Shown here one piece after another: positions 26,138 to 39,382 of a stretch of 64,000 nucleotides of DNA (position 1 is the first letter of the stretch; every line of letters begins with the position of its first letter). The stretch lies in contig CAMYMH010000001.1 in NCBI GenBank assembly GCA_947259275.1, forward strand, positions 108,287-172,286. Direction: 5' to 3'. The DNA is from an uncultured Acidimicrobiaceae bacterium (GTDB lineage Bacteria; Actinomycetota; Acidimicrobiia; Spongiisociales; SHLN01). A program made the position numbers and the translations under genes. The notes below the pieces were generated by a model that was not told the origin of the DNA, did not search any database, and saw only the letters and a list, made by a program, of their open reading frames with translations.

Positions 26138-26280
26138 GACATGAAGCATAGGATGCGGGGATTCGTCCACGCGTCAGAACCAAACATAGAGTAGAAGGTC
26201 CCTGTCGTTAGGCGGGAACCCTGCTCTACAAAGAACCAAACCCTGGGGCTCCAGCCTCAGAAATTGGGAGGAGTTATCTA

Positions 26281-27795
26281 GTGAAACATCGACTACTGCG
26301 CAAAGGGCCGGTGAGGTTAATCGCCGTGGCCCTCGCCCTGGCCCTAATTGCCGCCTCGTGCGGAGACGACGACGCGGCCACGACGGTGCCGAGTGGCACG
26401 GACACGACTGCGCCGAGCGGCACGGACACGACTGCGCCGGACACGACTGCGCCGAGCGGCACGGACACCACTGCGTCTACCGGTGGCACGGAGGTCATCA
26501 AGCTCGGCGTGGTTTCCGACTGTGAGGGCGCTTTCGGGGCGTTCCACAATCAGGACCTGGCCGGGGTTGGCACCGCCTTCGCCGAGTACGCGGGTGCGAC
26601 GATCCTCGATCCCGACGATGCCGCCGCCGGGTTCACCGGTGCATCCATCAACGGAATTCCCGTCGAGCTGGTCGGTGTCGGATGCGCCGACGACACGGCG
26701 GATGCGGCAATCCGCGAGACCCGTCGTCTCATGGAACAGTTGGAGGCCGACATCATGATCGGTCCTCTCTCCGGAGACGAGAGCATCGCGATAGCCAACT
26801 ACGCCAAGGATCACCCGGGTCAGACGTTCATCAACGGCTCGGCCGGAGCCCAGGACACGACGATGGCGGTGAAGGCGCCGAATTTCTTCCGGTTCAACGG
26901 TGACGGTGCGCAATGGAACGCCGGGACGGGCGACATCGCCCGCAACACCTTGGGCTGGGACACCGCGGCGGTGATCATGGACGATTACAGCTTCGCCTGG
27001 ACGTCGACCGCAGGGTTCATCGCTGAGTTCTGCGCCGCCGGTGGCGAGGTGATCTCACGGGTGTTCCCGCCGCTCAACACGACGGACTACTCGTCCTTCG
27101 TGCAGCAGCTGCCCGATCCGGACGAAGTAGACGGCTACTTCTGGACGATTGGCGGGGCCGGCACGATCGGCGGCCTGAAGGCGTTTGAGGATGCCAAAGG
27201 TCCGATCAGCGGCGATCAGCACATGGGGAACCTGTTCTGGGGCACCCCCGGCCAGTTCGAGGAACTCGGTGACCGAGTCGAGGGCGCCTACGTGGGTGGC
27301 TTCGGCACCGCCGGCGATCTCAAGACGGACGCGGTCGCGGCGCACACCGCGCTGGTCGACAAGTACTACGACTCGTTCCCGCCGTTCGAAGGCGATGCGG
27401 CCTCGCAGGCTCATTCGGGCTTCCTGGTCAACTACTTCATGGCTTCGAAGGCTCTGATCGAGGCGCTCAAGGAGATCGGTGGAGACATCTCCGACGGCCA
27501 CGCGGCGTTGAGGGACGCTCTGTCGAACCTGGAAGTGGAGGGCCCGTACGGCACCATCACGCTCGACGAGAACCGCCAGGCAATCCAGGACCAGTTCGTG
27601 CAGCAGGTGGTCCGGGGCGACGACGGAAACCTGGCGGTGGTGACCGTGGCGAAGATCCCCAAGGTCGACCAGACCTTCGGAGGAACCTTCGACGGAGATC
27701 CGCCCCCGGGGCGTGACGTGCCGGCTTGTGAGGTCCGGGATATACCTTGGATCGGGAACGCCATTCCGGTGGTCGACGGCATCCCCCAGGAGTGA
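26281..27795 (+). CDS. ABC transporter substrate-binding lipoprotein (periplasmic-binding-protein type I, Leu/Ile/Val-binding family)
   Basis: Lipobox (…LALIAASCGDD). PSGTDTTA×3-4 repeat linker. PBP1 domain. GGGAGG SD before a GTG start. Confidence 0.8.
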   Translation: MKHRLLRKGPVRLIAVALALALIAASCGDDDAATTVPSGTDTTAPSGTDTTAPDTTAPSGTDTTASTGGTEVIKLGVVSDCEGAFGAFHNQDLAGVGTAFAEYAGATILDPDDAAAGFTGASINGIPVELVGVGCADDTADAAIRETRRLMEQLEADIMIGPLSGDESIAIANYAKDHPGQTFINGSAGAQDTTMAVKAPNFFRFNGDGAQWNAGTGDIARNTLGWDTAAVIMDDYSFAWTSTAGFIAEFCAAGGEVISRVFPPLNTTDYSSFVQQLPDPDEVDGYFWTIGGAGTIGGLKAFEDAKGPISGDQHMGNLFWGTPGQFEELGDRVEGAYVGGFGTAGDLKTDAVAAHTALVDKYYDSFPPFEGDAASQAHSGFLVNYFMASKALIEALKEIGGDISDGHAALRDALSNLEVEGPYGTITLDENRQAIQDQFVQQVVRGDDGNLAVVTVAKIPKVDQTFGGTFDGDPPPGRDVPACEVRDIPWIGNAIPVVDGIPQE

Positions 27796-27808
27796 GGTAT
27801 CGATACAG

Positions 27809-28606
27809 GTGGAGAGGCGTACCGAAACTGGAAAGGACCTGACGACTGACGGTGCGCCTCCGATCCTGCGATTGCGCGGGATCGACATGGCCTTTGGAGG
27901 CGTGCAAGCCCTGCGCGACGTCGAGTTCGACGTCGCGCAGGGCGAGCGCCTCGGGATCCTCGGACCCAACGGGGCCGGCAAGACGACCCTGTTCAACGTG
28001 ATCGCCGGCGACTTTGCGCCCACCGCAGGGACGGTCGAGATCCACGGGCAGGACGTGACGTCAATGCCGGCCAGGAAGCGCCCGTCGCTCGGAGTGGGTC
28101 GTACATATCAGGTGTCGCGTCTCTTCTCCGGGCTGTCGGTGGAGGACAACCTCTACCTGGCGGTTCTCGGCAATGAAACCGGACACCATCGTCCGGTCAT
28201 CGTCAAGCGCGATGAGGATTACCGCACACGCGCTCGCGCCGCCGCGGTGGGGGTGTGGCTACAAGACGAGCTCGATACCCTCGTGTCCGGGCTGTCGCAC
28301 GGTGAGCAGCGTCAGCTCGAGGTGGGGATGGCAATGGTCACCCACCCGTCGCTCTTGATGCTCGACGAGCCGGCCTCCGGCCTATCGAGGGGTGAGCGAG
28401 AACGCTTGACCGAGCTGCTGTTGTCTCTGCAGGGCGACATCACGCTGTTGCTGATCGAGCACGACATGGACGTCGCTCTTACCGTGGCCGAACGGATCGT
28501 GATGATGCACGAGGGCAAGAAGATCACGGAGGGCACCCCCGCCGAGATCCGGGCGAACGCTCTCGTGCACCAGATCTATCTGGGAGAGCGTATCTCCTAT
28601 GACTGA
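27809..28606 (+). CDS. livG: ABC transporter ATP-binding protein (LivG-like)
   Basis: Walker A GPNGAGKTT, signature LSHGEQRQLE, Walker B LLMLDEP. Start (GTG 27809 or ATG 27884) uncertain. Confidence 0.8.
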   Translation: MERRTETGKDLTTDGAPPILRLRGIDMAFGGVQALRDVEFDVAQGERLGILGPNGAGKTTLFNVIAGDFAPTAGTVEIHGQDVTSMPARKRPSLGVGRTYQVSRLFSGLSVEDNLYLAVLGNETGHHRPVIVKRDEDYRTRARAAAVGVWLQDELDTLVSGLSHGEQRQLEVGMAMVTHPSLLMLDEPASGLSRGERERLTELLLSLQGDITLLLIEHDMDVALTVAERIVMMHEGKKITEGTPAEIRANALVHQIYLGERISYD

Positions 28607-29345
28607 GCCTCTTCTCAGCATCTCCCAGCTGGTCGGCGGGTACGGAAGCGCCCGGGTGCTCGACGGTATCGAACTGGAGGTCGGCGTCGAGGCGGTTTCC
28701 GTTATCGGTCGCAACGGCATGGGGAAGACAACACTATGCAACACGATCATGGGCCTGGTCCCAGCCATGTCCGGCTCGATCAGGTTCAAAGGAGAAGAGC
28801 TGGTCGGGAGATCTCCGCACCGGATCGCCGCCACCGGAATCGGCTACGTTCCGCAGGGGCGGCGCCTGTTCGAGTCATTGACGGTCGACGAGCACCTGCA
28901 AATGCTGGCCAAAGGTACGAGGGGCCGGCGCTGGACACCGGCCAGCGTCTACGAGTTGTTTCCCCGGCTGGCCGATCGCAAGCGACTCGGCGGTGCCCTC
29001 CTATCGGGTGGGGAACAGCAGATGCTGGCGATCGGGCGGGCGCTTCTCCTCAACGCCGATCTGATCATCCTGGACGAGCCCTCCGAGGGCTTGGCGCCCG
29101 CCATCGTGGACGACCTGATCACCACCTGTCACCACCTGGTCGAACAGGGCGAGGCGGTGCTCCTCGTCGAACAGAACCTCTCCGTTGCGACGGCCGTATC
29201 TGAACGCAACCTGGTGATGGTGTCCGGCCGGATCGAAGCCGAGATCTCGGCCGGCGCTCTGATGGGCGATCCGGTGGCCCAGCAGCGGTATCTGGGCGTG
29301 GAGACACTCAACCAAACCGATCAGGCCCACGGCGACGGTAAATGA
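28599..29345 (+). CDS. livF: ABC transporter ATP-binding protein (LivF-like)
   Basis: Walker A GRNGMGKTT, signature LSGGEQQML, Walker B LIILDEP. Confidence 0.85.
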   Translation: MTEPLLSISQLVGGYGSARVLDGIELEVGVEAVSVIGRNGMGKTTLCNTIMGLVPAMSGSIRFKGEELVGRSPHRIAATGIGYVPQGRRLFESLTVDEHLQMLAKGTRGRRWTPASVYELFPRLADRKRLGGALLSGGEQQMLAIGRALLLNADLIILDEPSEGLAPAIVDDLITTCHHLVEQGEAVLLVEQNLSVATAVSERNLVMVSGRIEAEISAGALMGDPVAQQRYLGVETLNQTDQAHGDGK

Positions 29346-30289
29346 GCGGGGAGCGGTTCCTCGTCACCGGCGCCATGGGCTGTATCGGCGCATGGGTCAC
29401 CAAACTGCTCCTCGACGAAGGGGTTGCCGTCGCCACCTTCGACCTATCCGACGACGACAGGCGTTTGCGCCAGATCATCGACCCCGATGCCATGGGCCGG
29501 ATCGAACGGATCCTGGGAGACATCACCGATAACCGGCAGGTTTTCGAGGCGATCAGCGGGAGATCGCATGTTATCCACCTCGCCGCACTCCAGATCCCTT
29601 TCTGCCAGGCGAATCCGCCACTCGGCGCGGCGGTCAACGTGACAGGCACCGTCAACGTTTTCGAGGCGGTCAAGGACCACGGCGCGCAGCATCTGGTGTA
29701 CGCCAGCAGCCTGGCCGTGTACGGCCACCCGCGTAACTACGAGGTCGACACTCTGCCACCGGACGCCCCCCGCCTACCGGAAACGCTTTACGGCGTATAC
29801 AAGGTCGCCAACGAGGGCACCGCCGTCGTCTACTGGCAGGACTACCACGTCCCCAGCATCGGGATTCGACCATACACGGTGTACGGCCCGTTACGCGATC
29901 AGGGCGTCACCGCCCAACCGACGTTAGCCATCGAAGCCGCGGTACGGGGTGAGAAATACCACATCGAGTACGGTGGCTTCGCGGGTTTTCAGTTCGCTCC
30001 CGACGTGGCGCGATTGTTGATCATGGCAGCCCGTACCGAGCCGTTCGGCGCCGACGTCTATTCGCTACGCGGTGACATCACCTCGATCGACGAGTTCGTT
30101 CGTGTCGTTGCCGAGGTCACGGGCAGCACCGGGATCACTCACGGCGATGACCCGCTGCCGCTTCCGCACGGTGCCGAGGATGGTCCGCTGCGGGATAGGC
30201 TGGGTGAAGTGCCCCACACACCCTTGAGGGAAGCGATCACCATCACCGCCGACTTCTTTGCGGAGAGGGGACGGCATGGAGCGAGCTGA
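29342..30289 (+). CDS. NAD-dependent epimerase/dehydratase family protein
   Basis: N-terminal VTGAMGCIGAWV Rossmann motif and YxxxK (YGVYK). Confidence 0.8.
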   Translation: MSGERFLVTGAMGCIGAWVTKLLLDEGVAVATFDLSDDDRRLRQIIDPDAMGRIERILGDITDNRQVFEAISGRSHVIHLAALQIPFCQANPPLGAAVNVTGTVNVFEAVKDHGAQHLVYASSLAVYGHPRNYEVDTLPPDAPRLPETLYGVYKVANEGTAVVYWQDYHVPSIGIRPYTVYGPLRDQGVTAQPTLAIEAAVRGEKYHIEYGGFAGFQFAPDVARLLIMAARTEPFGADVYSLRGDITSIDEFVRVVAEVTGSTGITHGDDPLPLPHGAEDGPLRDRLGEVPHTPLREAITITADFFAERGRHGAS

Positions 30290-30938
30290 ACTGGACCTGA
30301 TCGGCGAACGCCTCGAGGGGCTCTACACCGCCATCGTCCACGACGTGCTGCTGGGCCGCGGTGAGCCGACCGGCGTTCTGCCGAAGGGCATCAGCCCCCT
30401 GGCAGGCGGAGGCAAGGTCGGCGGGGTGGTCTACACGGTGTTGGGCAGGCCCGATCCCGACATCTCCGCGCACGAGTCGCTGCTGCTGTGGACCGAATTC
30501 CTCTCCGAGGTGCCGCCGGGGACGGTGGTGGTGAGCCAGCCGAACGATCACGATGTCGCCCACATGGGGGAGCTCTCGGCCGAGACGCTCAAATACCGGG
30601 GGGTGCGCGGATTCATCGTCGACGGCGGCTGTCGCGACACCCGGCTCGTGCTCGACATCGGCTTCCCGGTGTGGTGCCGTTATACGACTCCGTCCGACGT
30701 TGTCGGTCGCTGGCGGGTCGACGCCCTCGGCGAGCCCATCATGATCGGCACCGTAGCCATTCACAGCGGCGACTGGGTGCTCGCCGATGAGGATGGCGTC
30801 GTGGTGGTGCCGGCCGCTACGGCCGAGGAGGTCGTGCGCGAAGCCGAGATCCAAGCGGCGACGGAGGACGAGATCCGGGCGGCGATTCTCAGCGGGGTCT
30901 CCCCGAAGGACGCCTACCTCGAGCACGGCAAGTTCTAA
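30276..30938 (+). CDS. RraA-family protein (RraA / 4-hydroxy-4-methyl-2-oxoglutarate aldolase-like)
   Basis: …TAIVHDVL…GFIVDGGCRDT… is characteristic of the RraA/DlpA family. Start MERAELD overlaps the upstream gene end. Confidence 0.7.
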   Translation: MERAELDLIGERLEGLYTAIVHDVLLGRGEPTGVLPKGISPLAGGGKVGGVVYTVLGRPDPDISAHESLLLWTEFLSEVPPGTVVVSQPNDHDVAHMGELSAETLKYRGVRGFIVDGGCRDTRLVLDIGFPVWCRYTTPSDVVGRWRVDALGEPIMIGTVAIHSGDWVLADEDGVVVVPAATAEEVVREAEIQAATEDEIRAAILSGVSPKDAYLEHGKF

Positions 30939-31036
30939 GGGTACCAGGGCTCGATTTGGTGAGCCCGCTCCAACCCACCCCTCAGTCGGGTAGGCTCGGC
31001 GCAGCGTCCACGAGCCCATCCAAGGAGGGCAGAGCA

Positions 31037-32461
31037 GTGTCTGAGACCCATCGTGCCGTCATCCCCTTCGAGTCGCTCGACCCTCTCACGATCGGGGCCA
31101 GCGGCAACGAAGACCTCATCAACCGGGAGACTATTGAGATCGACATCCCGGCCGCCAACCTGATGGCGGACATTCGGCCGGACGAACCGGAGCCGATTGC
31201 AGACGCCACCGCGGCCGCGGCCGCCGCACTGGAAAGCCCCCACTCCGGGCCTCGCTTCTCCGAGCTTCTCAACGGTGCCGGCAGCGTGGCCGTGGTCATC
31301 GATAACCAGTTCCGGCCGACACCCACGTCGAAGTTACTGCCCGCCGTCCTCGATGCAATCGAGGCAGCCGGCATCACAGACGCCCGCGTGGTGTGCGCCA
31401 ACGGGAAGGTCTTTCCGATGTCGGAGTCGGATACCGTGCAGAAGATCGGCGAGGACAATCTCGCCCGTATGGAACAGATGGGCGTTCCCTTCATGCAGAA
31501 TGACCCGGGTAACCCCGCCGCTTACACCTACATCGGGATCTCGTCGCGCGGCACGCCGGTTTGGCTCCACACCGCGGTGGCCAGCGCCGATGTCAAGATC
31601 ACCGTCGGCCAAGCGCAGTCCAATCACTGGGGTGCCGGCGGCGGTGGCAAGCTCATCCTTCCCGGCGTCGTGTCGGACGCCACCATCGAGTCGAACCACG
31701 CCGCCTTCGTCACTTCGCCGCAGACCCACTATGGCGCAGTGGCCGGCCCGATGCGGTCCGACATCGATGAGGTGGCCACCATGTGCGAGCTGACGGCGAC
31801 GATGAATGTCATCCTCGACACCCATGGCCGGGTCTCCGATGTGCTCTTCGGCGCCCATCCCGATGCTCATCGCGAATCCATCAGGCGCTTCAACGCAACC
31901 TATGCGTACGACAACCCGGTGGCCGAGCATGGACCCGCCGACATCGCCATCTGCGGCGTGTTCGCCCCGACCGATCATTTGTTCTTCCATACCGGGTGGG
32001 GCGCCATGTCGACCGACCTGGTCGTTGGCGAGGGCGGCACCATCATCTACTGCTCGCCCTCTCCCGGTGTCCACACCGACCTGGGTGACTTCCCCGGACT
32101 GGCGCTGATGGATCTGATGCAGCCGTACATGCCGCCGACTCGGGAGAACTACGAGCGGGTACTGCATGACATCCACCACCGGGCGATCGAGATGTGGTCG
32201 GGCTGCATCTGGGTGCCGATCTACGAGGTAATGACGCGCAAGCACCTGACGATGGTGACCCTCGAGGAGAACTTGGCGATGGCTGCAGATATCGGCATCG
32301 ACGCCACCACGTCCCTGGACGAAGCCTTCGGGGCGGCCATGGGGCGCCATGGCCCCGACGCCAAGGTCATCGTCCTTCCATACGCGCGATACCAACTGCC
32401 CAAGAACGCCATCCGGATGGATGCGGAGGACATTACGACGCTCGAGCAGTTACGTCTGTGA
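31037..32461 (+). CDS. larA: LarA-family nickel-pincer-nucleotide-dependent 2-hydroxyacid racemase/epimerase homolog (DUF2088 + LarA C-terminal domain)
   Basis: Strong SD AAGGAGG 8 nt before GTG 31037. LarA-like sequence throughout (…VVIDNQFRPTP…HTGWGAMSTD…). Substrate unknown. Confidence 0.75.
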   Translation: MSETHRAVIPFESLDPLTIGASGNEDLINRETIEIDIPAANLMADIRPDEPEPIADATAAAAAALESPHSGPRFSELLNGAGSVAVVIDNQFRPTPTSKLLPAVLDAIEAAGITDARVVCANGKVFPMSESDTVQKIGEDNLARMEQMGVPFMQNDPGNPAAYTYIGISSRGTPVWLHTAVASADVKITVGQAQSNHWGAGGGGKLILPGVVSDATIESNHAAFVTSPQTHYGAVAGPMRSDIDEVATMCELTATMNVILDTHGRVSDVLFGAHPDAHRESIRRFNATYAYDNPVAEHGPADIAICGVFAPTDHLFFHTGWGAMSTDLVVGEGGTIIYCSPSPGVHTDLGDFPGLALMDLMQPYMPPTRENYERVLHDIHHRAIEMWSGCIWVPIYEVMTRKHLTMVTLEENLAMAADIGIDATTSLDEAFGAAMGRHGPDAKVIVLPYARYQLPKNAIRMDAEDITTLEQLRL

Positions 32462-32467
32462 CCAGCA

Positions 32468-32752
32468 GTGCCCTCGGGATCCAGCCGGCGGATCAGAGGC
32501 AGGACCACCATCGCCGAGATTCTCAGGATGTACCCGGATGGGCGCGCCTACCGGCTCATGCAGCAGTTGCATTGGGCCTGCCCCATGTGCGGTTTCGCCC
32601 CGCGCGAGCCGCTGGCAATGGCGGCCAAGAAGCACAAGAACTCGCCGCTGGCCGTACTCGAGGCCTTTCGAGCTCTCGACGAGCATGACGGACCAAGCGC
32701 AGAGATGATCGCCCGGGCGGCGGAACGACATAGGAAGTACGAGATGCCATGA
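32468..32752 (+). CDS. DUF1858-like small redox-disulfide (CxxC) protein
   Basis: …TIAEILRMYPDGRAYRLMQQLHWACPMCGF…, i.e. the ScdA/YtfE N-terminal-like DUF1858 with a CPMC motif. Sits between larA and larE. Confidence 0.55.
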   Translation: MPSGSSRRIRGRTTIAEILRMYPDGRAYRLMQQLHWACPMCGFAPREPLAMAAKKHKNSPLAVLEAFRALDEHDGPSAEMIARAAERHRKYEMP

Positions 32753-33546
32753 CTACTGCCGAAGCAAGATTGGCGGACGAACTTCGCTCGCTGGAGCGGG
32801 TTGTCGTCGCCTTTTCCGGTGGCGTGGATTCGGCGACCCTGGCCTATGCCGCGTTGCGCGTCCTCGGTCCTGACCGGATGCAGGCGGTCACGGCCGATTC
32901 CGATTCACTGGCGACCGGTGAGCTCGAGCACTGTGCCGACTTGGCCCGGCAATGGGATATGCCGTGGCGGTCGGTGGCCACCAACGAGCTCGCCAACGTC
33001 GACTACGTTGCAAACCAAGGCGACCGCTGCTTCTGGTGCAAGGATGCCCTCATGGATGCCCTGACACCCGTAGCCGCCGATCTTGGGGCGGCGATCACCC
33101 TCGGCGTCAACGTGGACGACCTCGGCGATCACCGACCCGGGCAGGAGGCCGCCCGTCAGCGCGGGGCCCGCTTCCCGCTGGTAGACGCCGGCCTTCGAAA
33201 GTCAGACATCCGTGAACTGGCCAAAGGGTGGGGTCTCCCGATCTGGGACCGGCCCGCCATGCCCTGCCTCAGCTCACGCGTACCGTACGGCACGCCGGTG
33301 ACCGTGCGAGTGCTGTCGCGCATCGACCGCGCCGAGATGGAGTTGCGGCGCCTCGGCTTCGGCGACCTCCGGGTTCGCCACTACGACGACACCGCACGGA
33401 TCGAGGTGCCGCTCTCGAAGATGACGGAGGTGGTGGAGCAGAGTGAGGTGATCGTCACCGCCTTGCAGCGCATCGGGTACCGCTACGTGACGCTCGATCT
33501 CGCCGGCCTGCGTTCCGGCAACCTCAACTCAGCGCTGTCGCAATGA
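32749..33546 (+). CDS. larE: LarE, ATP-dependent sulfur transferase for nickel-pincer cofactor (PP-loop ATP pyrophosphatase family); three conserved Cys suggest the [4Fe-4S] catalytic type
   Basis: PP-loop VVAFSGGVDS. Cys in CFWCK plus PCLSSRVPYG. Confidence 0.8.
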   Translation: MTTAEARLADELRSLERVVVAFSGGVDSATLAYAALRVLGPDRMQAVTADSDSLATGELEHCADLARQWDMPWRSVATNELANVDYVANQGDRCFWCKDALMDALTPVAADLGAAITLGVNVDDLGDHRPGQEAARQRGARFPLVDAGLRKSDIRELAKGWGLPIWDRPAMPCLSSRVPYGTPVTVRVLSRIDRAEMELRRLGFGDLRVRHYDDTARIEVPLSKMTEVVEQSEVIVTALQRIGYRYVTLDLAGLRSGNLNSALSQ

Positions 33547-34214
33547 ATACGTCTGACGACGGGCGAGTGGTGCATCTGGGCGACACGCGCCTCGATGTCG
33601 ATCGACGACGCCGCATCGGTATTCCCGAAGCGGTATACGCCGAGGGGAAGACCGCGGCTCAATGCGTCCGAATCGTCGAAGCCCTCCTCTCGGCCAACGG
33701 TGACCCGGTGATCGTCACCCGGACCAGCCCGGAGCAGCGCGAGTCCCTGGCGGTGCTCGAGCCCACCGCCACCTGGACGGCCACGCTCACCTGGCAGCAC
33801 GCCGAGGCGCAAGCTGTGAAACCGGTCGCCATTGTGTCGGGAGGCACGTCCGACCAGCCGGTGGTGGATGAGTGTCTCGGCACCCTGGCGGCGATGGGCG
33901 TTCCGGTTGAGACACATCGCGACGTGGGGGTGGCCGGCATCCACCGACTGGTCGACGTTCTGCCAAGTCTCGAGGGTGCCTCGGTCGTCGTGGCAGTTGC
34001 TGGTATGGAGGCGTCGCTGCCGACCGTTCTCGGCGGCCTGGTGTGGGCGCCGATTATCGGCGTACCCACCTCTACCGGCTACGGCTCGAGCTTCGAAGGC
34101 ATCACGGCGCTGTTGTCAATGCTCTCGTCGTGCGCTCCCGGGATCAGCGTTGTGGGAATTGACAATGGCTACGGGGCGGCTTGCGCGGCGTTGCGGAGCC
34201 TGGCGCACGACTGA
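33543..34214 (+). CDS. larB: LarB, nickel-pincer cofactor biosynthesis carboxylase/hydrolase (PurE-like)
   Basis: PurE-like C-terminal half (…VAIVSGGTSD…VVVAVAGMEASLP…GVPTSTGYG…). Confidence 0.8.
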   Translation: MNTSDDGRVVHLGDTRLDVDRRRRIGIPEAVYAEGKTAAQCVRIVEALLSANGDPVIVTRTSPEQRESLAVLEPTATWTATLTWQHAEAQAVKPVAIVSGGTSDQPVVDECLGTLAAMGVPVETHRDVGVAGIHRLVDVLPSLEGASVVVAVAGMEASLPTVLGGLVWAPIIGVPTSTGYGSSFEGITALLSMLSSCAPGISVVGIDNGYGAACAALRSLAHD

Positions 34215-35386
34215 TGGCGCGGGCACTGTGGCTCAACCCGGCGGTCGGCGTTTCCGGTGACATGTTGCTCGGGGCGTTGATCGACGCCGGCGCCGATGAG
34301 GCGAGCGTGCGCAAGGCGCTGGAGGCGCTCAACGTGACCGGATGGCATCTGGAGGTCATGGACGTCGAGCGCCGCGGGCTCCGCTGCCGTCACGCCAGGG
34401 TGACCGCCGAGGTTGCCGAAGAGCCGAGAACGTGGTCTGCCATCGATGCCTTGCTCGCCGGGGCCGATCTTCCGCCGTCGGCCTCACACGGGGCGCGGGC
34501 GACCTTCCGCCGACTCGGCGAGGTCGAGGCCGAACGGCATGGTGTGGGAATCGATGACGTGCACTTCCATGAGGTGGGCGCGGTGGATGCGATCGTCGAC
34601 ATCGTGGGGTGTTGGGCGGCCCTCGAGACATTGGAGGTTGGCGAGGTATGGTCAGGTCCGGTCGGGCTCGGGACGGGAACGGTGGCCTCATCGCACGGTG
34701 TGCTGCCGCATCCGGCTCCGGCCGTGCTCGGCCTGCTCGAAGGTGTTCCGGTCGTGGGGCTCGACTCGGCGAAGGAGACGGCCACTCCGACCGGCGTCGC
34801 CTTGCTGGTGACGATGGTGGATGAGTGGGGGACGGTTCCCTCCGGACGGCTCGAACGTTCGGGTCTTGGCGCCGGGAGCCGGGATGAGACAACTCATCCC
34901 AACGTGCTGGCCGCCGTGATGATCGAAACCGACGACTCCGCCGAAGTGGACGCCGTGTTGATCGAGACGACACTCGACGACGTAACTCCCGAGATTCTGG
35001 GTCACGTATTAGAACGTGCCCTGGATGCCGGCGCCGACGATGCCTGGCTGGTCCCCGTCGTCATGAAGAAGGCGCGCCCGGGTCACGAGCTGCGCATCCT
35101 GTGCGCCCCGGCGGTGCAGGAGCGTCTGATCGGTCTGGTGGCCGCCGAGACCGGCACACTGGGCATGCGGACCTATCGGGTTGGTAAACACATATTCCCG
35201 AGAGGGTTCGAGGAAGTCTTGTTGGATGGAGAGACCATCCGGATGAAGGTCGGTCCCTATGGGGCCAAGCCGGAGGCGGCCGACGTGATCCGGGTGGCGG
35301 ACGCCACCGGAAGGAGCGCTCGATCGGTGGCAGCCGAGGCGCTGGTCCGATGGGCGAGCCGCGTCACCAACGTGAAGGAGTCCTGA
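34214..35386 (+). CDS. larC: LarC, CTP-dependent nickel insertase (DUF111), unsplit
   Basis: …GVSGDMLLGALIDAGAD…FHEVGAVDAIVDIVG… DUF111 signature. The start shares one nt with the larB stop (TGATG). Confidence 0.8.
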   Translation: MARALWLNPAVGVSGDMLLGALIDAGADEASVRKALEALNVTGWHLEVMDVERRGLRCRHARVTAEVAEEPRTWSAIDALLAGADLPPSASHGARATFRRLGEVEAERHGVGIDDVHFHEVGAVDAIVDIVGCWAALETLEVGEVWSGPVGLGTGTVASSHGVLPHPAPAVLGLLEGVPVVGLDSAKETATPTGVALLVTMVDEWGTVPSGRLERSGLGAGSRDETTHPNVLAAVMIETDDSAEVDAVLIETTLDDVTPEILGHVLERALDAGADDAWLVPVVMKKARPGHELRILCAPAVQERLIGLVAAETGTLGMRTYRVGKHIFPRGFEEVLLDGETIRMKVGPYGAKPEAADVIRVADATGRSARSVAAEALVRWASRVTNVKES

Positions 35387-36010
35387 GTGGAGCTGCACAA
35401 CTCATTCGTGGTCGGTCGTCCGGTCGAAGAAGCCTGGGTCGTGCTCACCGATCTCGGGCGCATTGCCCCCTGCATGCCGGGAGCCCAGCTCACCGGGATC
35501 GAAGGCGACGAGTACCAGGGCCTGGTGAAAGTGAAAGTGGGGCCGATCGTGGCCACCTACACCGGCACTGCCACCTTCACCAGCTGCAACGAAGAGGATG
35601 GCGTCGCCATCATCAAGGCATCCGGGCGTGATACCCGCCAGGGCAACGCCGATGCTGTGATCACAGCCACCCTGAGGCCGGGTGGTGCCGGTACCAGTCA
35701 AGTCGATCTCGCCACCGACCTCAGCCTGAGCGGCAAGCTCGCCAGTTTTGGTAAAGGGGCCATCAAGGACGTCTCAACCAACATCCTCGGGCAATTCGCC
35801 GCCAACCTCGAGGCAATGCTCGCCCAGGAGACCGCCGCACCCAGCCCCCAACCGGCTGCGGCACCACCGGCGGAAAGTCAACCTCCGGCACCGCAGCCGC
35901 TGGATCTCGCCGCCGCTGCCCGGGCCCCGATGCGGAAGCTCGTCCTCCCGGTCGTCGTTGCCCTGCTGCTGATGGTGAGCTGGCGCTGCCTGCGCAGGCG
36001 GCGGCGCTGA
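35387..36010 (+). CDS. CoxG-like SRPBCC protein (carbon monoxide dehydrogenase subunit G family) with C-terminal TM anchor
   Basis: …HNSFVVGRPVEEAWVVLTDLGRIAPCMPGAQL… CoxG signature, a Pro/Ala-rich linker, then a hydrophobic tail plus RRRRR. Confidence 0.7.
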   Translation: MELHNSFVVGRPVEEAWVVLTDLGRIAPCMPGAQLTGIEGDEYQGLVKVKVGPIVATYTGTATFTSCNEEDGVAIIKASGRDTRQGNADAVITATLRPGGAGTSQVDLATDLSLSGKLASFGKGAIKDVSTNILGQFAANLEAMLAQETAAPSPQPAAAPPAESQPPAPQPLDLAAAARAPMRKLVLPVVVALLLMVSWRCLRRRRR

Positions 36011-36025
36011 CTCAATCCGGGGGAA

Positions 36026-36946
36026 TCAGAGCAACCCGGCCGCCTCGAGGGCCCGTTTGACCGCTTCGAGCTCGGCGGCGGGTAGCTTGACCAAAGGTGG
36101 CCGCACCACGGCACGCGGCTGCCGACCCAGCAGCACCAACGCCTCCTTGATACGGTTATGCATGTCGACGGCGGGTTCGGCATAGAAGCACTGTGCCAGC
36201 GGGTAGATGCGGTCGTTGATGGTCCGGGCGGCGGGCAGATCGCCGGATTGCACTGCGTTGAAGAGCGCCACCTGCAAGTCGGCAATGACGCTGCCCGAAC
36301 CGGAGAGCAGGCCGTTGCATCCCATCGTCAAGGAGGCCATCAGCCAGGCGCTGTTGGTCGACAGCACATTGATTGGCCGAGGTAGCCCCTGGAGAACCCG
36401 GACATGGCGCTCGTGGATGGCCCCACTGTTCCAGTCCTTGACGGCGCATATGGTCGGGACCTCCTCCACCATCTGCAACAGGGTGTCCATGGGGTAGGCG
36501 TAGTCGCCCGAGTATTGGAAGGCGATGAGCGGCAAATCGCTGGCGGCGGCGATGGTTCTGAAGTGAGCCAACGCCATCTCCGGCCGGCGCTGCCCGTGCA
36601 TCATCCCGATGGTGTGGGGCGGGAACACCAGGAGCGCCGAGGCTCCAGCCGCCTGGGCCATGGCTGCGATCCGGGCGGCTTCGAGGCTCCCGTCGGCGTA
36701 GACGCCGCTGATGACGGGCAAGGCGTTTCCCACCTCATCGAGTGCCAGGTCGAGGACCCGGTGCTGCTCGTCGACGGTGCAGGCGTGCACCTCCGAGGCG
36801 TGCCCGTTGACGGTGATGGCCGAGATCCCGACCACCCCGGCAACGTCGCGGAGGTGGCGCCGCGTGGCGTCGTTGTCGATAGAGAGATCTTCGTGGAATG
36901 CGAGAAGCGTCGCCGGGATGACCCCATCGGGCATGTAGGAACTCAT
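36026..36946 (-). CDS. DapA-family class I aldolase (dihydrodipicolinate synthase/N-acetylneuraminate lyase family)
   Basis: MSSYMPDGVIPATLLAF…GISAITVNGHASE…FQYSGDYAY… The long 750-aa ORF is an antisense extension over the + strand xanthine-dehydrogenase-family gene. Confidence 0.8.
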   Translation of the reverse strand: MSSYMPDGVIPATLLAFHEDLSIDNDATRRHLRDVAGVVGISAITVNGHASEVHACTVDEQHRVLDLALDEVGNALPVISGVYADGSLEAARIAAMAQAAGASALLVFPPHTIGMMHGQRRPEMALAHFRTIAAASDLPLIAFQYSGDYAYPMDTLLQMVEEVPTICAVKDWNSGAIHERHVRVLQGLPRPINVLSTNSAWLMASLTMGCNGLLSGSGSVIADLQVALFNAVQSGDLPAARTINDRIYPLAQCFYAEPAVDMHNRIKEALVLLGRQPRAVVRPPLVKLPAAELEAVKRALEAAGLL

Positions 36947-37021: not shown

Positions 37022-39382
37022 ATGAGTTGGGTCGGGAAGCCTCTGGAGCGCATCGAGGATGAGACCCTGCTGCGCGGGCGGGGGCGTTTCATCGATGATC
37101 TCAATCCGGTGCCCGGCGCCTACCACGCCGCCGTGGTCAGGTCTCCCTACGCGGCCGCCCATCTCACCAGCATCGACGCTTCGGCCGCCCTCGCAAGTCC
37201 CGGCGTGCTGGCAGTTGTCACCGGCCAACAGGTTGCCGAGTTGACCAAGCCGTTTCATGCGGTGATCGACACACCGGTTGCCTTCCGGGCCGCGGCCGTT
37301 GAGGAAGTCCGATACGCCGGCGAACCGGTGGCGGTGGTGGTCGCCCGGGACCGCTACCTGGCCGAGGACGCCGCCGAGATGGTGGCGGTCGAGTATGAGC
37401 CCGCCGCCCCGGTGCTGACGCCGCTTGACGCGGTCGCGGCAGGCGCGATCGTCTCCGACCGATCCTTCGTCTACGGCGATCCGCTCGGCAAGCTGGAGGA
37501 GGCCGATCTCGTCGTGACGGAATCCTTCACGTTTCCTCGCTGGACGGGAACGCCTGTCGAGGGCTTCGGCGTGATAGCCGACTGGTCGGCCGCCGACGAC
37601 GCCCTCACCGTGTGGACCAATTTTCAGGGCCCATTCACGCTGTATATGGCCGCGGCCGCCGCCCTCGGGCTCCCGCGATCCAAGCTCCGGCTCATCACTC
37701 CACCCGACTCGGGTGGGAGCTTCGGCATCAAGGCCGCGGTATACACATACGTCGTGCTGATGGGAGCGGTTTCCCGCCATCTCGGCGTTCCGGTTCGCTG
37801 GATCGAGGACCGCCTCGAGCACTTGGCCGCCAGTGCTGCCTCCACCGAACGGGTCACCGAGGTCACGGCCGGCTTCACCAATGACGGCAAGCTGATCAGC
37901 CTCGGCTATGACGTCGTCGAGGACGTCGGTGCCTATCTGCGTGCCCCGGAACCGGCCACCCTCTACCGGATGCACGGCTCGCTCAGCGGTGCCTATACCG
38001 TGCAGGATGTCTCGGCTCGCAACCGGGTGGTGTTGACCAACCGTTGCCCAACCGGCCTCAACCGCGGATTCGGTGGTCCCCAGCTGTATTTCGCCCTCGA
38101 AGGCACCATGGCCATCGCGGCAGCCCGGCTCGGCATCGATCCCGTCGACCTGGCCCATCGCAATCTGGTGGCGGCCGGGGAGTTCCCTTACACGACCCCA
38201 ACGGGTGCCATCTACGACTCCGGCGACTACGCCGTATGCCTGGACGACGCGCTGGCAACGGTTGGATATGCCGAACACCGCCGCCGGCAGGCCGCGGCGC
38301 GCGCCGACGGGCGGTTGGTCGGAATCGGGATTGCGTGTGTGGTCGAGCCGTCGGTCTCCAACATGGGCTACATCTCACTCGCCGAGACCGCCCAAGAGCG
38401 CTCGGGAGGCCTGCCCAAGTCGGGAAACACCGAGGGAGCAACCATTTCAATGTCCCCCGGGGGCGGGGTGGTCGTGCAGATCTCGACGACGCCGCAGGGC
38501 CAGGGCCACCGGACGGTCGTCTCTCAGGTGGTCGCAGATCAACTCGGCCTCGAGCCGGGGGACATCGAGGTGGTCTCCGTTCTCGACACCCACGTCAATG
38601 CGTGGTCGATCGCGTCCGGGAACTACTCCTCTCGTTTTTCGGCGATGGGTGTGGCGGCGGTGCAGCAGGCAGCTGAGGAGTTGACGGCGGCGATCAAACA
38701 GATTGCCGCTCACGAGCTGGAGTGCGCGGTCCTCGACGTTGAGCTGCGCGATGGGAAAGCCGCCGTCGTCGGCCAGCAGGATGCCGCGGTCTCGCTGCGG
38801 CGCATCGCCGGCAAGGCTCACTGGAATCCCGAGGCGCTGCCCGACGGCGTTGCTCCGGGGCTTCGTTTCACATCATTTGTCTCGGCCCCCGGCCTCGAAC
38901 CGGCGGCGAGTGACGACACGATCGCCTCCTCCGCCGTCCATGGCTTCGTGGCCGACGTAGCCGTGGTCGAGGTGGATCGGGAAACCGGCGCGGTCACCGT
39001 TCTCGACTACGCAACCACCCACGACGCCGGGACGCTCCTCAATCCGCGCCTGGTCGAAGGCCAGGTCAGGGGCGGCTTCGCGCACGGCGCAGGCGTCGCC
39101 CTCATGGAGCGTCTCGCCTACGACGAGGACGGCAACTTGATCACCGCCAGCTTCATGGACTACCTATGCATGACCGCGTCGGAGGTGCCGCCGCTGCGGT
39201 CATCGCATATCGAGACGCCGTCACCGTTCACCGCCCTCGGTGCCAAGGGCCTTGGCGAGGGCAACACGATGAGCGCGCCGGTGACCATCGCAAACGCGGT
39301 ACGAGATGCGCTCGGCATCGAGCGGCTCGAGCTGCCGCTGACGCCTTCCCGGGTGTGGGAGCTCATCGAGCCCCTGTCATGA
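37022..39382 (+). CDS. Xanthine-dehydrogenase-family molybdopterin-binding large subunit (2-furoyl-CoA dehydrogenase HmfA-like / CoxL-like)
   Basis: MSWVGKPLERIEDETLLRGRGRFIDD… Has a GFGGPQ-type motif rather than CoxL's VAYRCSFR. Confidence 0.8.
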   Translation: MSWVGKPLERIEDETLLRGRGRFIDDLNPVPGAYHAAVVRSPYAAAHLTSIDASAALASPGVLAVVTGQQVAELTKPFHAVIDTPVAFRAAAVEEVRYAGEPVAVVVARDRYLAEDAAEMVAVEYEPAAPVLTPLDAVAAGAIVSDRSFVYGDPLGKLEEADLVVTESFTFPRWTGTPVEGFGVIADWSAADDALTVWTNFQGPFTLYMAAAAALGLPRSKLRLITPPDSGGSFGIKAAVYTYVVLMGAVSRHLGVPVRWIEDRLEHLAASAASTERVTEVTAGFTNDGKLISLGYDVVEDVGAYLRAPEPATLYRMHGSLSGAYTVQDVSARNRVVLTNRCPTGLNRGFGGPQLYFALEGTMAIAAARLGIDPVDLAHRNLVAAGEFPYTTPTGAIYDSGDYAVCLDDALATVGYAEHRRRQAAARADGRLVGIGIACVVEPSVSNMGYISLAETAQERSGGLPKSGNTEGATISMSPGGGVVVQISTTPQGQGHRTVVSQVVADQLGLEPGDIEVVSVLDTHVNAWSIASGNYSSRFSAMGVAAVQQAAEELTAAIKQIAAHELECAVLDVELRDGKAAVVGQQDAAVSLRRIAGKAHWNPEALPDGVAPGLRFTSFVSAPGLEPAASDDTIASSAVHGFVADVAVVEVDRETGAVTVLDYATTHDAGTLLNPRLVEGQVRGGFAHGAGVALMERLAYDEDGNLITASFMDYLCMTASEVPPLRSSHIETPSPFTALGAKGLGEGNTMSAPVTIANAVRDALGIERLELPLTPSRVWELIEPLS

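What the first reader, a model, noticed from the sequence alone, without database searches (positions are those of the whole stretch)
30276..35386. Complete nickel-pincer-nucleotide (NPN) cofactor cluster with a LarA homolog of unknown substrate and an inserted CxxC DUF1858 gene
Gene order is RraA-like, larA homolog (474 aa, strong AAGGAGG SD), DUF1858 CxxC protein, larE, larB, larC (unsplit). All are overlapping or coupled. LarE carries three Cys (CFWCK…PCLSS), which suggests the [4Fe-4S]-dependent catalytic LarE type rather than the sacrificial single-Cys type. The small CPMC redox-disulfide protein wedged between larA and larE is not part of described lar operons. It could be a sulfur-relay or cluster-repair partner for LarE, or a redox regulator. 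The context (RraA-family aldolase-like, NAD-epimerase, Liv-type transporter upstream; CoxG and xanthine-dehydrogenase-family enzymes downstream) argues this LarA is not a lactate racemase but another 2-hydroxy-acid racemase/epimerase feeding a catabolic route.
Basis: partly seen in the sequence, partly recalled or inferred. Interest (0 to 1): 0.6.

Follow-up and report, generated by a model that had tools for sequence, protein, structure and literature searches.

The report
Atypical LarA enzyme with CxxC partner
The nickel-cofactor gene cluster is real, but the small CxxC gene belongs with an unusual LarA-type enzyme that lacks the standard catalytic histidines and always heads a furoate-type degradation operon in soil Actinomycetota, so it may catalyse an undescribed nickel-pincer reaction.

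Summary
Window 30276-35386 encodes RraA-like, a 474-aa LarA homologue (LarAH), a 94-aa CxxC protein, LarE, LarB and unsplit LarC, all tightly coupled.

The interpretation needs revision in three places.
- **LarE** has the CxxC…C motif, but that is the common [4Fe-4S] type and is unremarkable.
- **The small protein** is a divergent DUF1858-like domain, below curated cut-offs. It partners LarAH, not LarE. It follows LarAH on the same strand in 63/63 related loci with enough flank. larE is co-directional nearby in only 4/63.
- **LarAH** belongs to a tight clade (73-90% identity) of uncultured Acidimicrobiia and Thermoleophilia. It keeps the cofactor-anchoring residues (Arg75, Lys184, His200 equivalents). 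His108 is Val and His174 is Asn. New invariant residues are His197, His318, Lys124 and Trp321. No published LarAH group I could check shows this pattern.

The conserved unit is LarAH, small gene, Mo-dehydrogenase L/M/S, acyl-CoA synthetase, enoyl-CoA hydratase. This is the hmfABCDE (2-furoyl-CoA) gene order. In this lineage larE-larB-larC-coxG were inserted into it.

Substrate and reaction remain unknown. I rate it a new variant of a known kind.

The parts
24039..29345 (+). Liv-type ABC transporter: two permeases, a solute-binding protein and two ATPases. Likely the uptake system for the pathway substrate.
   Evidence: ORFs. Orthologues lie upstream of LarAH in about 31/64 loci, usually divergent. 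BPD_transp_2 was found on neighbours in L081.
29342..30289 (+). NAD-dependent epimerase/dehydratase-family SDR. A lineage-specific neighbour.
   Evidence: PF01370 E 1e-28. Upstream of LarAH in 12/64 loci.
30276..30938 (+). RraA-like / HMG-CHA aldolase-family protein. A lineage-specific neighbour.
   Evidence: PF03737 E 7e-30. Below all NCBIfam cut-offs. Adjacent to LarAH only in L001-L004; 7/64 overall.
31021..31028 (+). Shine-Dalgarno AAGGAGG(G), 9 nt before the GTG start of the LarA homologue.
   Evidence: Sequence read.
31037..32461 (+). LarA homologue (LarAH), 474 aa. LarA fold, NPN-anchoring residues kept (Arg93, Lys205, His221). His108 is replaced by Val125 and His174 by Asn196. New invariant residues are Lys124, His197, Trp198, His314, His318 and Trp321.
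   Evidence: Lar_N E 2e-33. Below all LarAH equivalog cut-offs. Alignments to LarA Lp, Ip and Mar2. AF2 model TM 0.7-0.8 to LarA structures. Key residues invariant in 81/81 orthologues.
32468..32752 (+). Small DUF1858-like helical protein with invariant CxxC (Cys38/Cys41), Glu47 and His56. A conserved partner of this LarAH clade.
   Evidence: Present after LarAH in 77/80 loci and 63/63 with adequate flank. Weak DUF1858/TIGR03980/2K5E similarity. AF2 pLDDT 77, five short helices. GC3 0.80.
32749..33546 (+). LarE, ATP-dependent sulfur insertase of the [4Fe-4S] (CxxC…C) type. PP-loop SGGVDS; Cys94, Cys97, Cys173.
   Evidence: TIGR00268 296 bits. Aligned to 8cnz and LarE Lp. Motif defined in PMC9283937. 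Cys positions.
33543..34214 (+). LarB, NaAD carboxylase/hydrolase.
   Evidence: NF033503 237 bits against cut-off 175.
34214..35386 (+). LarC, the CTP-dependent nickel insertase, encoded as a single unsplit ORF.
   Evidence: PF01969 E 2.5e-114. LarC1 and LarC2 models both pass their cut-offs.
35387..36010 (+). CoxG-family (SRPBCC) protein with a Pro/Ala-rich linker and a hydrophobic C-terminus.
   Evidence: PF06240 E 2.4e-17. Among related loci found only in L001.
36026..36946 (-). DapA/KdgD-family (class I aldolase/dehydratase) gene on the opposite strand. Specific to this genome.
   Evidence: TIGR00674 and KdgD models below cut-off. Absent from all 80 related loci.
37022..39382 (+). Molybdopterin-binding large subunit of an XDH/CODH-family dehydrogenase (hmfA-like).
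   Evidence: NCBIfam family-level hits only. Orthologues named '2-furoyl-CoA dehydrogenase large subunit' by JGI. Downstream of LarAH-small in 57/63 loci.
39379..40254 (+). FAD-binding medium subunit (hmfB-like).
   Evidence: 55/63; start confirmed by exact look-up.
40224..40724 (+). [2Fe-2S] small subunit (hmfC-like). The true start is probably the GTG at 40251, overlapping the previous stop.
   Evidence: 54/63.
40721..42232 (+). AMP-forming acyl-CoA synthetase (hmfD-like position).
   Evidence: 51/63; 503-aa product confirmed.
42229..43017 (+). Crotonase/enoyl-CoA hydratase-family protein (hmfE-like position).
   Evidence: (41/63 within the flank).

Best explanation
**What it is.** The core is a conserved two-gene module heading a seven-gene catabolic operon. 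The module is a non-canonical LarA homologue plus a small DUF1858-like CxxC protein. The rest of the operon is a three-subunit Mo-dehydrogenase, an acyl-CoA synthetase and an enoyl-CoA hydratase, arranged like hmfABCDE of the 2-furoyl-CoA (Trudgill) pathway. This operon occurs in aerobic soil and freshwater Acidimicrobiia and Thermoleophilia. In the window's lineage the cofactor-synthesis genes larE-larB-larC, plus coxG, were inserted between the module and the hmf-like genes. The operon therefore makes its own nickel-pincer nucleotide (NPN).

**Shown.**
- LarB, [4Fe-4S]-type LarE and LarC are recognisable at curated thresholds.
- LarAH has the LarA fold.
- LarAH keeps the Arg, Lys and His that anchor NPN and ligate nickel.

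**Inferred.**
- LarAH binds NPN and performs hydride-shuttle chemistry on an alpha-hydroxy (acyl or acid) intermediate that feeds or drains the heteroaroyl-CoA pathway. A C5 2-hydroxy-dicarboxylate related to 2-oxoglutarate is most plausible.
- It uses a rebuilt acid/base set (His318, His197, possibly Lys124) in place of His108 and His174.
- The reaction need not be a symmetric racemisation.
- The small protein is a dedicated LarAH accessory. It is most likely a thiol/disulfide or metal-binding factor that keeps the oxygen-labile Ni-thiocarboxylate cofactor functional, or helps install it, in an aerobe. It is not a LarE helper.
For: **Gene identities.**

**LarA fold.** The 19 matches with E<=0.001 are all chains of LarA-family structures, with TM 0.56-0.83.

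**Active-site mapping.** Four independent alignments agree:
- R75 = R93
- H108 = V125
- H174 = N196
- K184 = K205
- H200 = H221
- Q295 = H318
- K298 = W321

These residues are invariant in 81/81 orthologues.

**Covariation.** Among 78 full-length representatives, only this clade and its four nearest relatives lack His108, and all of them carry His at the Q295 position.

**Context.**
- The small gene is downstream on the same strand in 63/63 loci.
- XDH L/M/S are present in 57/55/54 of 63, the acyl-CoA synthetase in 51 and the ECH in 41, all co-directional.
L090 is a compact seven-gene unit.
- The hmfABCDE order and functions are described in PMC3223595.
- JGI names the orthologues '2-furoyl-CoA dehydrogenase large subunit'.

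**NPN dependence.** larE, larC and larB lie within 10 kb in 19-20 of 63 loci and inside the operon here.

**2-hydroxyacid substrate.** GlcDEF-like FAD/FeS 2-hydroxyacid oxidase genes sit between the small gene and XDH_L in Acidimicrobiales loci.

**Small protein.**
- CxxC is invariant in 77 orthologues.
- It shows DUF1858-like similarity.
- DUF1858 has a CxxU selenoprotein form, which marks the motif as redox-active (PMC9312934).
- DUF1858 is related to the N-domain of the Fe-S repair protein ScdA.
- Purified LarA readily loses nickel and gains an oxidised thiocarboxylate sulfur (PMC11796402).
- The putatively anaerobic relatives (AFOR, ferredoxin and hydrogenase neighbours) lack the small gene.
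Against: - No activity, cofactor-loading or interaction data exist. All organisms are uncultured MAGs.
- The active-site mapping is from sequence only. The AF2 model is moderate (pLDDT 74, below 50 for residues 209-241) and its coordinates could not be inspected.
- The one-residue deletion after His197 makes the His174 register ambiguous. His197 may simply be the His174 equivalent.
- Proteobacterial hmfABCDE suffices for furoate catabolism without any LarA. So the step assigned to LarAH is undefined.
- The hmf assignment rests on gene order and automated names. It was not tested against HmfA sequences.
- Conserved synteny could partly reflect common descent.
- The small protein fails the curated DUF1858 and TIGR03980 cut-offs, and Foldseek found no structural neighbour.
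- Most loci (43/63) have no lar biosynthesis genes within 10 kb.
Confidence: 0.55

Rival explanations
1. First reader's reading. The small CxxC protein is a LarE partner, acting as a sulfur relay or as a [4Fe-4S] cluster repair or reduction factor, recruited into a lar operon.
For: - In the window its stop overlaps the larE start.
- LarE is the O2-labile [4Fe-4S] type.
- DUF1858 is related to the N-domain of the Fe-S repair protein ScdA.
Against: - Adjacency to co-directional larE occurs in only 4/63 loci, all close relatives of the window.
- In 16 other loci larE is on the opposite strand several kb away, and in 43 it is not within 10 kb. The small gene still follows LarAH in 63/63.
Confidence: 0.07
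2. LarAH is an ordinary two-base 2-hydroxyacid racemase or epimerase. His197 would stand in for His174 and His318 for His108. A likely substrate is a 2-hydroxyglutarate-type acid, supplying the D-isomer to a GlcDEF/D2HGDH-type oxidase. The small protein is only a stabilising subunit or is irrelevant to catalysis.
For: - NPN-anchoring residues are conserved.
- Two invariant His residues lie in active-site segments, the loop after position 174 and helix alpha11.
- GlcDEF-like genes are adjacent in about 16% of loci.
- All characterised LarAHs are racemases or epimerases (PMC7583248, PMC11770544).
Against: - Lys298 and Gln295 of the LarA active site (Lys298 is called catalytic in PMC7583248) are replaced by Trp and His, and Asp72 by Asn. 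That is a larger remodelling than in any characterised racemase group.
- The nearest relatives without His108 also lack any His at positions 174/175.
- The strict 63/63 pairing with the CxxC protein is left unexplained.
Confidence: 0.25
3. The small protein serves the Mo-dehydrogenase, for example as an electron-transfer or maturation factor, and LarAH is only a syntenic neighbour.
For: In most Gaiellales loci the small gene lies directly between LarAH and XDH_L, often less than 300 nt from XDH_L.
Against: - Wherever other genes are inserted, the small gene stays with LarAH and not with XDH_L. Examples are larEBC-coxG here and GlcDEF in Acidimicrobiales.
- About six loci have LarAH-small but no XDH within 10 kb.
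- Proteobacterial hmf clusters are described without such a gene.
Confidence: 0.08
4. LarAH has lost catalysis. It would then be an NPN- or nickel-binding carrier, store or sensor rather than an enzyme.
For: Both canonical catalytic histidines are substituted by alignment.
Against: - Conservation is extreme: 73-90% identity across two classes, with about 200 invariant positions including new polar residues in active-site segments. This argues for a constrained catalytic site.
- Its fixed position at the head of a catabolic operon also argues for an enzymatic role.
Confidence: 0.05

Closest known systems
LarA superfamily NPN-dependent 2-hydroxyacid racemases/epimerases (LarA Lp 5HUQ, LarA Ip 9EIA, Mar2 6D6Z)
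   Same: - Lar_N domain and overall fold (TM 0.7-0.8).
- Arg75, Lys184 and His200 equivalents for NPN phosphate binding, covalent tether and Ni ligation.
- Encoded next to larE, larB and larC.
   Different: - His108 is Val, His174 is Asn, Asp72 is Asn, Tyr294 is Phe, Gln295 is His and Lys298 is Trp.
- About 45 extra residues, including an N-terminal insertion.
- Scores far below every NCBIfam LarAH equivalog cut-off.
- Obligate small CxxC neighbour.
- Embedded in a CoA-dependent Mo-hydroxylase operon.
Single-histidine LarA-like enzymes LarA_Bw / LarA_Sp (9Q2U, 9Q3J, 9Q3K; Gatreddi et al. 2025, PMC12611868)
   Same: - Asn at the His174 position.
- Unknown substrate; proposed non-canonical or unidirectional NPN chemistry.
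- Longer than canonical LarAs.
   Different: - Those enzymes keep the His108 equivalent and have Lys for Arg75. This clade lacks His108 and keeps Arg.
- Only remote sequence similarity (E 1e-7 to 1e-13).
- Sugar-metabolism context there, against a furoyl-CoA-type context here.
- No CxxC partner is described there.
hmfABCDE 2-furoic acid (Trudgill) pathway of Cupriavidus basilensis HMF14 (PMC3223595)
   Same: - Same gene order: Mo-dehydrogenase large, FAD and FeS subunits, then acyl-CoA synthetase, then crotonase-family CoA-ester hydrolase.
- JGI names the orthologues 2-furoyl-CoA dehydrogenase.
   Different: - The proteobacterial clusters need no LarA homologue or CxxC protein.
- The substrate here is untested. 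It could be furoate or another heteroaromatic 2-carboxylate; amidase and RidA genes are frequent neighbours.
DUF1858 / hybrid-cluster-protein-associated redox disulfide domain (PF08984, TIGR03980; 2K53, 2K5E) and the ScdA/RIC N-terminal domain
   Same: - Small helical domain.
- CxxC in the same alignment register, followed by E-x-L…A-x-x-H.
- A CxxU selenoprotein form exists in the family.
   Different: - Below the curated thresholds.
- No Foldseek match.
- Has a C-terminal extension.
- A new genomic association (LarA homologue) that was not found in the literature searched.
[4Fe-4S]-dependent LarE (T. maritima; M. maripaludis 8CNZ)
   Same: PP-loop SGGxDS and the CxxC…C motif, with the one-residue shift of the third Cys relative to Cys176 of LarE Lp.
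   Different: Nothing notable. This is the majority LarE type.

Membership tests
LarA superfamily (DUF2088 / Lar_N) | Lar_N domain and the two-domain LarA fold | tested here: met
   PF09861 E 2.3e-33 against a gathering score of 23.3. The AF2 model's 19 best PDB matches are all LarA-family structures, TM 0.56-0.83.
LarA superfamily (NPN-binding members) | NPN-anchoring residues: Arg75 (phosphate), Lys184 (thioamide tether) and His200 (Ni ligand) | tested here: met
   Arg93, Lys205 and His221 align to them in four alignments. They are invariant in 81/81 orthologues.
Canonical NPN racemases/epimerases (LarA, Mar, Hgr, GntE, HHR groups) | Two catalytic histidines, His108 and His174 | tested here: not met
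   Val125 aligns to His108 and Asn196 to His174. His197 sits one position later, next to a one-residue deletion, so the His174 call is register-dependent. The His108 loss is unambiguous.
Characterised LarAH equivalogs (NCBIfam: LAR, MAR LarAH5/6, LarAH10, LarAH14/15/16) | Score at or above the curated cut-off of the family model | tested here: not met
   Best is NF052593 at 183 bits against 500. NF033504 (LarA) scores 140 against 460.
Single-His LarA-like subfamily (LarA_Bw/LarA_Sp) | Invariant Asn at His174 with the His108 equivalent retained, and Lys replacing Arg75 | tested here: not met
   Asn at position 174 is present. However, the His108 equivalent is Val and Arg75 is retained. PDB similarity is only E 1e-7 to 1e-13.
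NPN-utilising enzyme (functional) | Covalently or tightly bound nickel-pincer nucleotide in the purified protein | not testable with these tools
   Only indirect support: larE-larB-larC are in the same operon here, and within 10 kb in 19-20 of 63 loci.
[4Fe-4S]-dependent LarE | PP-loop SGGxDS plus a CxxC…C cysteine triad | tested here: met
   FSGGVDS is present, with Cys94, Cys97 and Cys173. These align to the Cys residues of 8cnz. The motif is defined in PMC9283937. All 23 neighbouring LarE orthologues carry it. Cluster binding itself was not tested.
LarB / LarC | Scores above the curated equivalog cut-offs | tested here: met
   LarB NF033503 scores 237 against 175. LarC1 TIGR00299 scores 174 against 90. 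LarC2 NF052512 scores 113.5 against 50.
DUF1858 (PF08984) / TIGR03980 redox-disulfide domain | Score at or above the curated cut-off, and the CxxC motif in register | tested here: inconclusive
hmfABCDE 2-furoyl-CoA pathway | Co-located Mo-dehydrogenase (L, FAD, FeS), CoA synthetase and CoA thioesterase (crotonase family) in conserved order | tested here: met
   The order L-M-S-ACS-ECH is seen in the window and in 41-57 of 63 loci. The reference organisation is in PMC3223595.
hmfABCDE 2-furoyl-CoA pathway | At least 40% similarity to HmfA, HmfD and HmfE of C. basilensis, and growth on or turnover of 2-furoate | not tested
   No reference Hmf sequences were available. Only JGI's automated name '2-furoyl-CoA dehydrogenase large subunit' on orthologues supports this.

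The most novel reading that the evidence does not exclude
This LarAH clade, together with its CxxC partner, catalyses a reaction that is not a racemisation. It would fill a step of a heteroaroyl-CoA (furoate- or pyrrole-2-carboxylate-type) pathway. Two versions fit the evidence.

1. **Redox-neutral hydride relocation.** An example is a 1,3-shift that turns an allylic 2-hydroxy intermediate, such as 2-hydroxyglutaconyl(-CoA), into 2-oxoglutaryl(-CoA). Desguin et al. anticipated this kind of reaction for LarAHs that lack one histidine.
2. **Net NPN-dependent dehydrogenation.** Here the small protein's disulfide would re-oxidise the reduced pincer.

Either would be the first NPN enzyme outside racemase/epimerase chemistry, and the first with a dedicated protein partner.
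Probability: 0.2. Interest if true: 0.85.

Novelty: new variant of a known kind. Interest (0 to 1): 0.62.

Why it matters
Every NPN enzyme with a known activity is a 2-hydroxyacid racemase or epimerase that uses two histidines. The only described exceptions lack His174 and have no known substrate.

This clade differs in four ways:
- It is abundant, found in 284 species-level genomes and more than 1,100 protein clusters.
- It is strongly conserved and lacks His108, and by alignment His174 as well.
- It has an obligate CxxC protein partner.
- It sits in a defined pathway context, so candidate substrates can be listed and tested.

It therefore gives a concrete handle on two open questions. One is what else the nickel-pincer cofactor can do. 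The other is how an oxygen-labile Ni-S cofactor is kept working in aerobes. It also suggests that the furoate-type pathway of soil Actinomycetota has an extra step that is absent from the proteobacterial model.

Tried and rejected
1. **Small protein as LarE partner.** Rejected by co-occurrence: 4/63 against 63/63.
2. **RraA-like and SDR neighbours as substrate clues.** Rejected as lineage-specific: 7/64 and 12/64.
4. **Matching the clade to a Desguin 2020 LarAH group.**
   - Tab-separated residue patterns cannot be searched.
   - Motif searches for ANGKVFPMS, FHTGW and DNQFR in the 354-sequence dataset gave 0 hits.
   - A positive control worked.
   - All groups sampled that bind NPN keep His108.
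5. **Naive longest-ORF gene calling in the related loci.** This failed in the 65% GC DNA because of antisense ORFs. It was replaced by GC3-filtered calling and tblastn mapping.
6. **Measuring distances in the LarAH model.** Model coordinates are not exposed.
7. **Contexts of P0165 and P0166.** The contigs were too short to be informative.
8. **Rfam, tRNA and promoter/terminator scans.** Nothing relevant found.
9. **Literature search for furoyl-CoA together with lactate racemase.** No papers found.
10. This script call failed and was repeated.

Full report
**1. Observation**

- RraA-like: 30276-30938.
- LarA homologue (LarAH): 31037-32461, 474 aa, GTG start, AAGGAGG 9 nt upstream.
- CPMC-containing protein: 32468-32752, 94 aa.
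- LarE: 32749-33546.
- LarB: 33543-34214.
- Unsplit LarC: 34214-35386.

LarE, LarB and both LarC models pass NCBIfam's curated cut-offs. Gene junctions are 6 nt or overlapping (ORF coordinates). CoxG starts at the base after the LarC stop. GC3 of about 0.8 in every ORF, including the small one, fits coding DNA of this 65% GC genome.

**2. LarE, LarB and LarC are ordinary**

LarE has SGGVDS and Cys94/Cys97/Cys173. These align with the cysteines of the M. maripaludis LarE 8CNZ. The third Cys is shifted by one residue relative to Cys176 of L. plantarum LarE. This is the CxxC…C motif that binds a [4Fe-4S] cluster in T. maritima LarE. It is found in most LarE homologues (PMC9283937). All 23 LarE genes near related LarAHs carry it too.

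**3. The small protein**

It fails Pfam and NCBIfam thresholds. DUF1858 scores 14.7 bits against 32.2, and TIGR03980 scores 25.6 against 44.95.

Three weak signals agree that it is a divergent DUF1858-type domain:
- 21 of 25 family members give weak DUF1858 hits.
- A family profile aligns to the solved DUF1858 proteins 2K5E (E 3e-4) and 2K53 (E 0.013).
- In those alignments CxxC falls on CxxC and E-P-L…A-A-x-x-H falls on E-S-L…A-x-x-H.

The AF2 model (pLDDT 77) has five short helices. Foldseek found no PDB neighbour. DUF1858 has a CxxU selenoprotein form, the usual mark of a redox-active motif (PMC9312934).

**4. Whose partner is it?**

A scan of one genome per species found 284 genomes with a LarAH relative. 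The best 80 loci (73-90% identity) are all MAGs of Acidimicrobiia and Thermoleophilia/Gaiellales.

tblastn mapping of the window's proteins onto these loci gave the following:
- The small gene lies directly after LarAH on the same strand in 77 of 80 loci.
- Two of the three exceptions are contigs that end at LarAH. One, L008, truly lacks it.
- It is present in 63 of 63 loci with at least 8 kb of downstream DNA.
- CxxC, Glu47 and His56 are invariant.
- larE is downstream in 20 of 63 loci and co-directional in only 4. Those 4 are the window's closest relatives.

The pair LarAH-small is therefore the ancient unit, and larE-larB-larC(-coxG) were inserted after it in this lineage. The source record annotates the small gene from a later ATG (74 aa). 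Other records omit it.

**5. The LarA homologue is atypical**

Its AF2 model has the LarA fold. All matches with E<=0.001 are chains of LarA-family structures. It scores far below every characterised LarAH family model.

Four alignments give one mapping. They are phmmer to Mar2 and LarA Ip, MAFFT with a group-1 LarA that shares L. plantarum numbering, L-INS-i with 78 superfamily representatives, and a family profile against LarA Lp 5HUQ.

| LarA Lp residue | This LarAH |
|---|---|
| Arg75 | Arg93 |
| Lys184 | Lys205 |
| His200 | His221 |
| Asp72 | Asn90 |
| Phe107-His108 | Lys124-Val125 |
| His174-Phe175-Phe176 | Asn196-His197-Trp198, followed by a one-residue deletion |
| Tyr294-Gln295 | Phe317-His318 |
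| Lys298 | Trp321 |

All of these residues are invariant in 81/81 orthologues, except Asn90 which is invariant in 80/81.

The cofactor-anchoring residues are kept. His108 is clearly lost. His174 is lost by alignment, although His197 may replace it given the adjacent deletion.

In a search of 1.84 billion cluster representatives, the clade collapses to one full-length 50% cluster. The next full-length relatives are only 44-35% identical. Those four relatives also lack His108, and all carry His at the Gln295 position. More distant relatives mostly keep His108. This points to relocation of a catalytic base.

Published single-histidine LarAHs lack His174 and keep His108 (PMC12611868). In Desguin et al. 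2020, the groups I sampled that appear to bind NPN keep His108. Groups 12 and 13 keep almost none of the listed residues. The clade's motifs are absent from that 354-sequence dataset. A positive control confirmed that the search works.

**6. Context**

Downstream of LarAH-small, co-directional, lie:
- an XDH/CODH-family Mo-dehydrogenase large subunit (57/63), FAD subunit (55/63) and [2Fe-2S] subunit (54/63);
- an acyl-CoA synthetase (51/63);
- a crotonase-family protein (41/63 within the 10-kb flank).

The window has the same five genes at 37022-43017. This is the order of hmfABCDE, the 2-furoyl-CoA pathway that yields 2-oxoglutarate (PMC3223595). JGI names the orthologues '2-furoyl-CoA dehydrogenase large subunit'.

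The association is reciprocal. L090 is a compact seven-gene unit bounded by unrelated genes.

Variable additions are:
- a Liv-type ABC transporter upstream (about half of loci);
- GlcD/E/F-like FAD/FeS 2-hydroxyacid oxidase genes between the small gene and XDH_L in Acidimicrobiales (10/63, plus L089);
- a convergent amidase (22/63) and RidA (18/63).

RraA-like, SDR, CoxG and the DapA-like gene are specific to this lineage or genome.

The distant His108-less relatives from apparently anaerobic contexts sit next to AFOR-family W/Mo oxidoreductases and ferredoxins. They have no DUF1858-like gene.

**7. Mechanism**

*Shown.* The operon encodes all three NPN-synthesis enzymes and a LarA-fold protein that retains the residues which tether NPN and ligate nickel.

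*Inferred, in three steps.*
- First, LarAH binds NPN and uses it as a transient hydride acceptor on an alpha-hydroxy intermediate linked to the heteroaroyl-CoA pathway. The end-product 2-oxoglutarate and the GlcDEF-like neighbours point to a C5 2-hydroxy-dicarboxylate or its CoA ester.
- Second, acid/base catalysis is done by His318 and His197, possibly with Lys124. Loss of Lys298 and Gln295, and of the His108/His174 pair, implies a different substrate pose. It may also imply a non-symmetric reaction. Desguin et al. suggested that a one-histidine LarAH might return the hydride to another site of the substrate.
- Third, the CxxC protein is a LarAH-specific accessory. Purified LarA readily loses nickel and gains an oxidised thiocarboxylate sulfur (PMC11796402). 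The partner occurs only in the aerobic actinobacterial clade. I therefore favour a thiol-based protection, repair or installation role for the cofactor. A direct redox role in turnover is not excluded.

**8. Comparison and novelty**

It works like, and is a member of, the LarA superfamily. It fails the defining two-histidine feature of the racemase groups. It does not belong to the described Asn174 single-histidine subfamily. The lar biosynthesis genes are standard. The hmf-like module matches in architecture only.

Three things appear undescribed in the literature I could search:
- the combination of an atypical active site with an obligate DUF1858-like partner;
- the fixed position at the head of a furoyl-CoA-type operon;
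- the wide distribution in uncultured soil Actinomycetota.

I rate it a new variant of a known kind, with interest 0.62. The main uncertainties are:
- the absence of any biochemical data;
- reliance on sequence alignment for the active-site claims;
- an untested hmf assignment;
- an undefined reaction.

Noticed in passing
window 43319-45637 (-): A single 772-aa ORF matches both the large subunit (residues 36-585, 811 bits) and the medium subunit (589-769) of B12-dependent diol/glycerol dehydratase. This suggests a fused large-medium subunit gene.
   Followed up: no
L083 7428-8807 and L084 (P0149, 44% identical LarAH relative): This His108-less relative also lacks the Lys184 equivalent. It sits among two quinolinate-phosphoribosyltransferase-like genes, an AFOR-family oxidoreductase, a Fer4/Fer2_BFD protein, an unannotated 476-aa protein and a TRAP transporter. 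The QRPTase-like genes next to an NPN-type protein are intriguing.
   Followed up: partly
L085 730-2037 / L086 (P0152, 41% identical relative): This LarAH relative is followed by AFOR, a 4Fe-4S ferredoxin, a GcvH-like protein and a lipoate-protein ligase. So His108-less LarAHs pair with pterin oxidoreductases in putative anaerobes as well (AFOR there, XDH family here).
   Followed up: partly
L088 442-2017 (P0166, 35% identical relative): A ThiS/MoaD-like sulfur-carrier gene overlaps the start of a LarAH relative that lacks both His108 and the Lys184 equivalent.
   Followed up: no
L009-L018, L059 (about 11.7-15.5 kb) and L089 3343-7004: GlcD/GlcE/GlcF-like genes (FAD_binding_4, FAD-oxidase_C, CCG Fe-S) are inserted between the small CxxC gene and the Mo-dehydrogenase in Acidimicrobiales. 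This hints at a D-2-hydroxyacid intermediate.
   Followed up: partly
window 32468-32752; L082 11423-11656: The small CxxC gene is annotated from an internal ATG in the source record (74 aa, MYPDG…) and is not called at all in some records. Yet the upstream IRGxTTIxEILR segment is conserved in 77 orthologues.
   Followed up: yes
L007, L020, L031, L046, L070 (between LarAH and the small gene): In a few loci 370-970 nt of apparently uncalled DNA separates LarAH from the small gene, against 0-115 nt in most others. The content was not examined.
   Followed up: no
L008 (Gaiellaceae MAG contig, 5,980 bp): This is the only locus with downstream sequence where the small gene is absent. LarAH is followed by what looks by eye like a class-IV aminotransferase ORF (not scanned against any library). 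It may be a real exception or a misassembly.
   Followed up: partly
window 35387-36010: The CoxG-family protein has a Pro/Ala-rich linker and a hydrophobic, Arg-rich C-terminal tail. It is coupled to the LarC stop and shared only with L001. It may anchor the downstream Mo-enzyme to the membrane.
   Followed up: no
L001-L080, LarAH compared with its neighbours: LarAH is far more conserved across the two classes (73-90% identity) than its operon partners. The small protein is 52-82% identical, XDH_L 58-81% and the acyl-CoA synthetase 49-78%. This suggests unusually strong constraint or recent spread.
   Followed up: no
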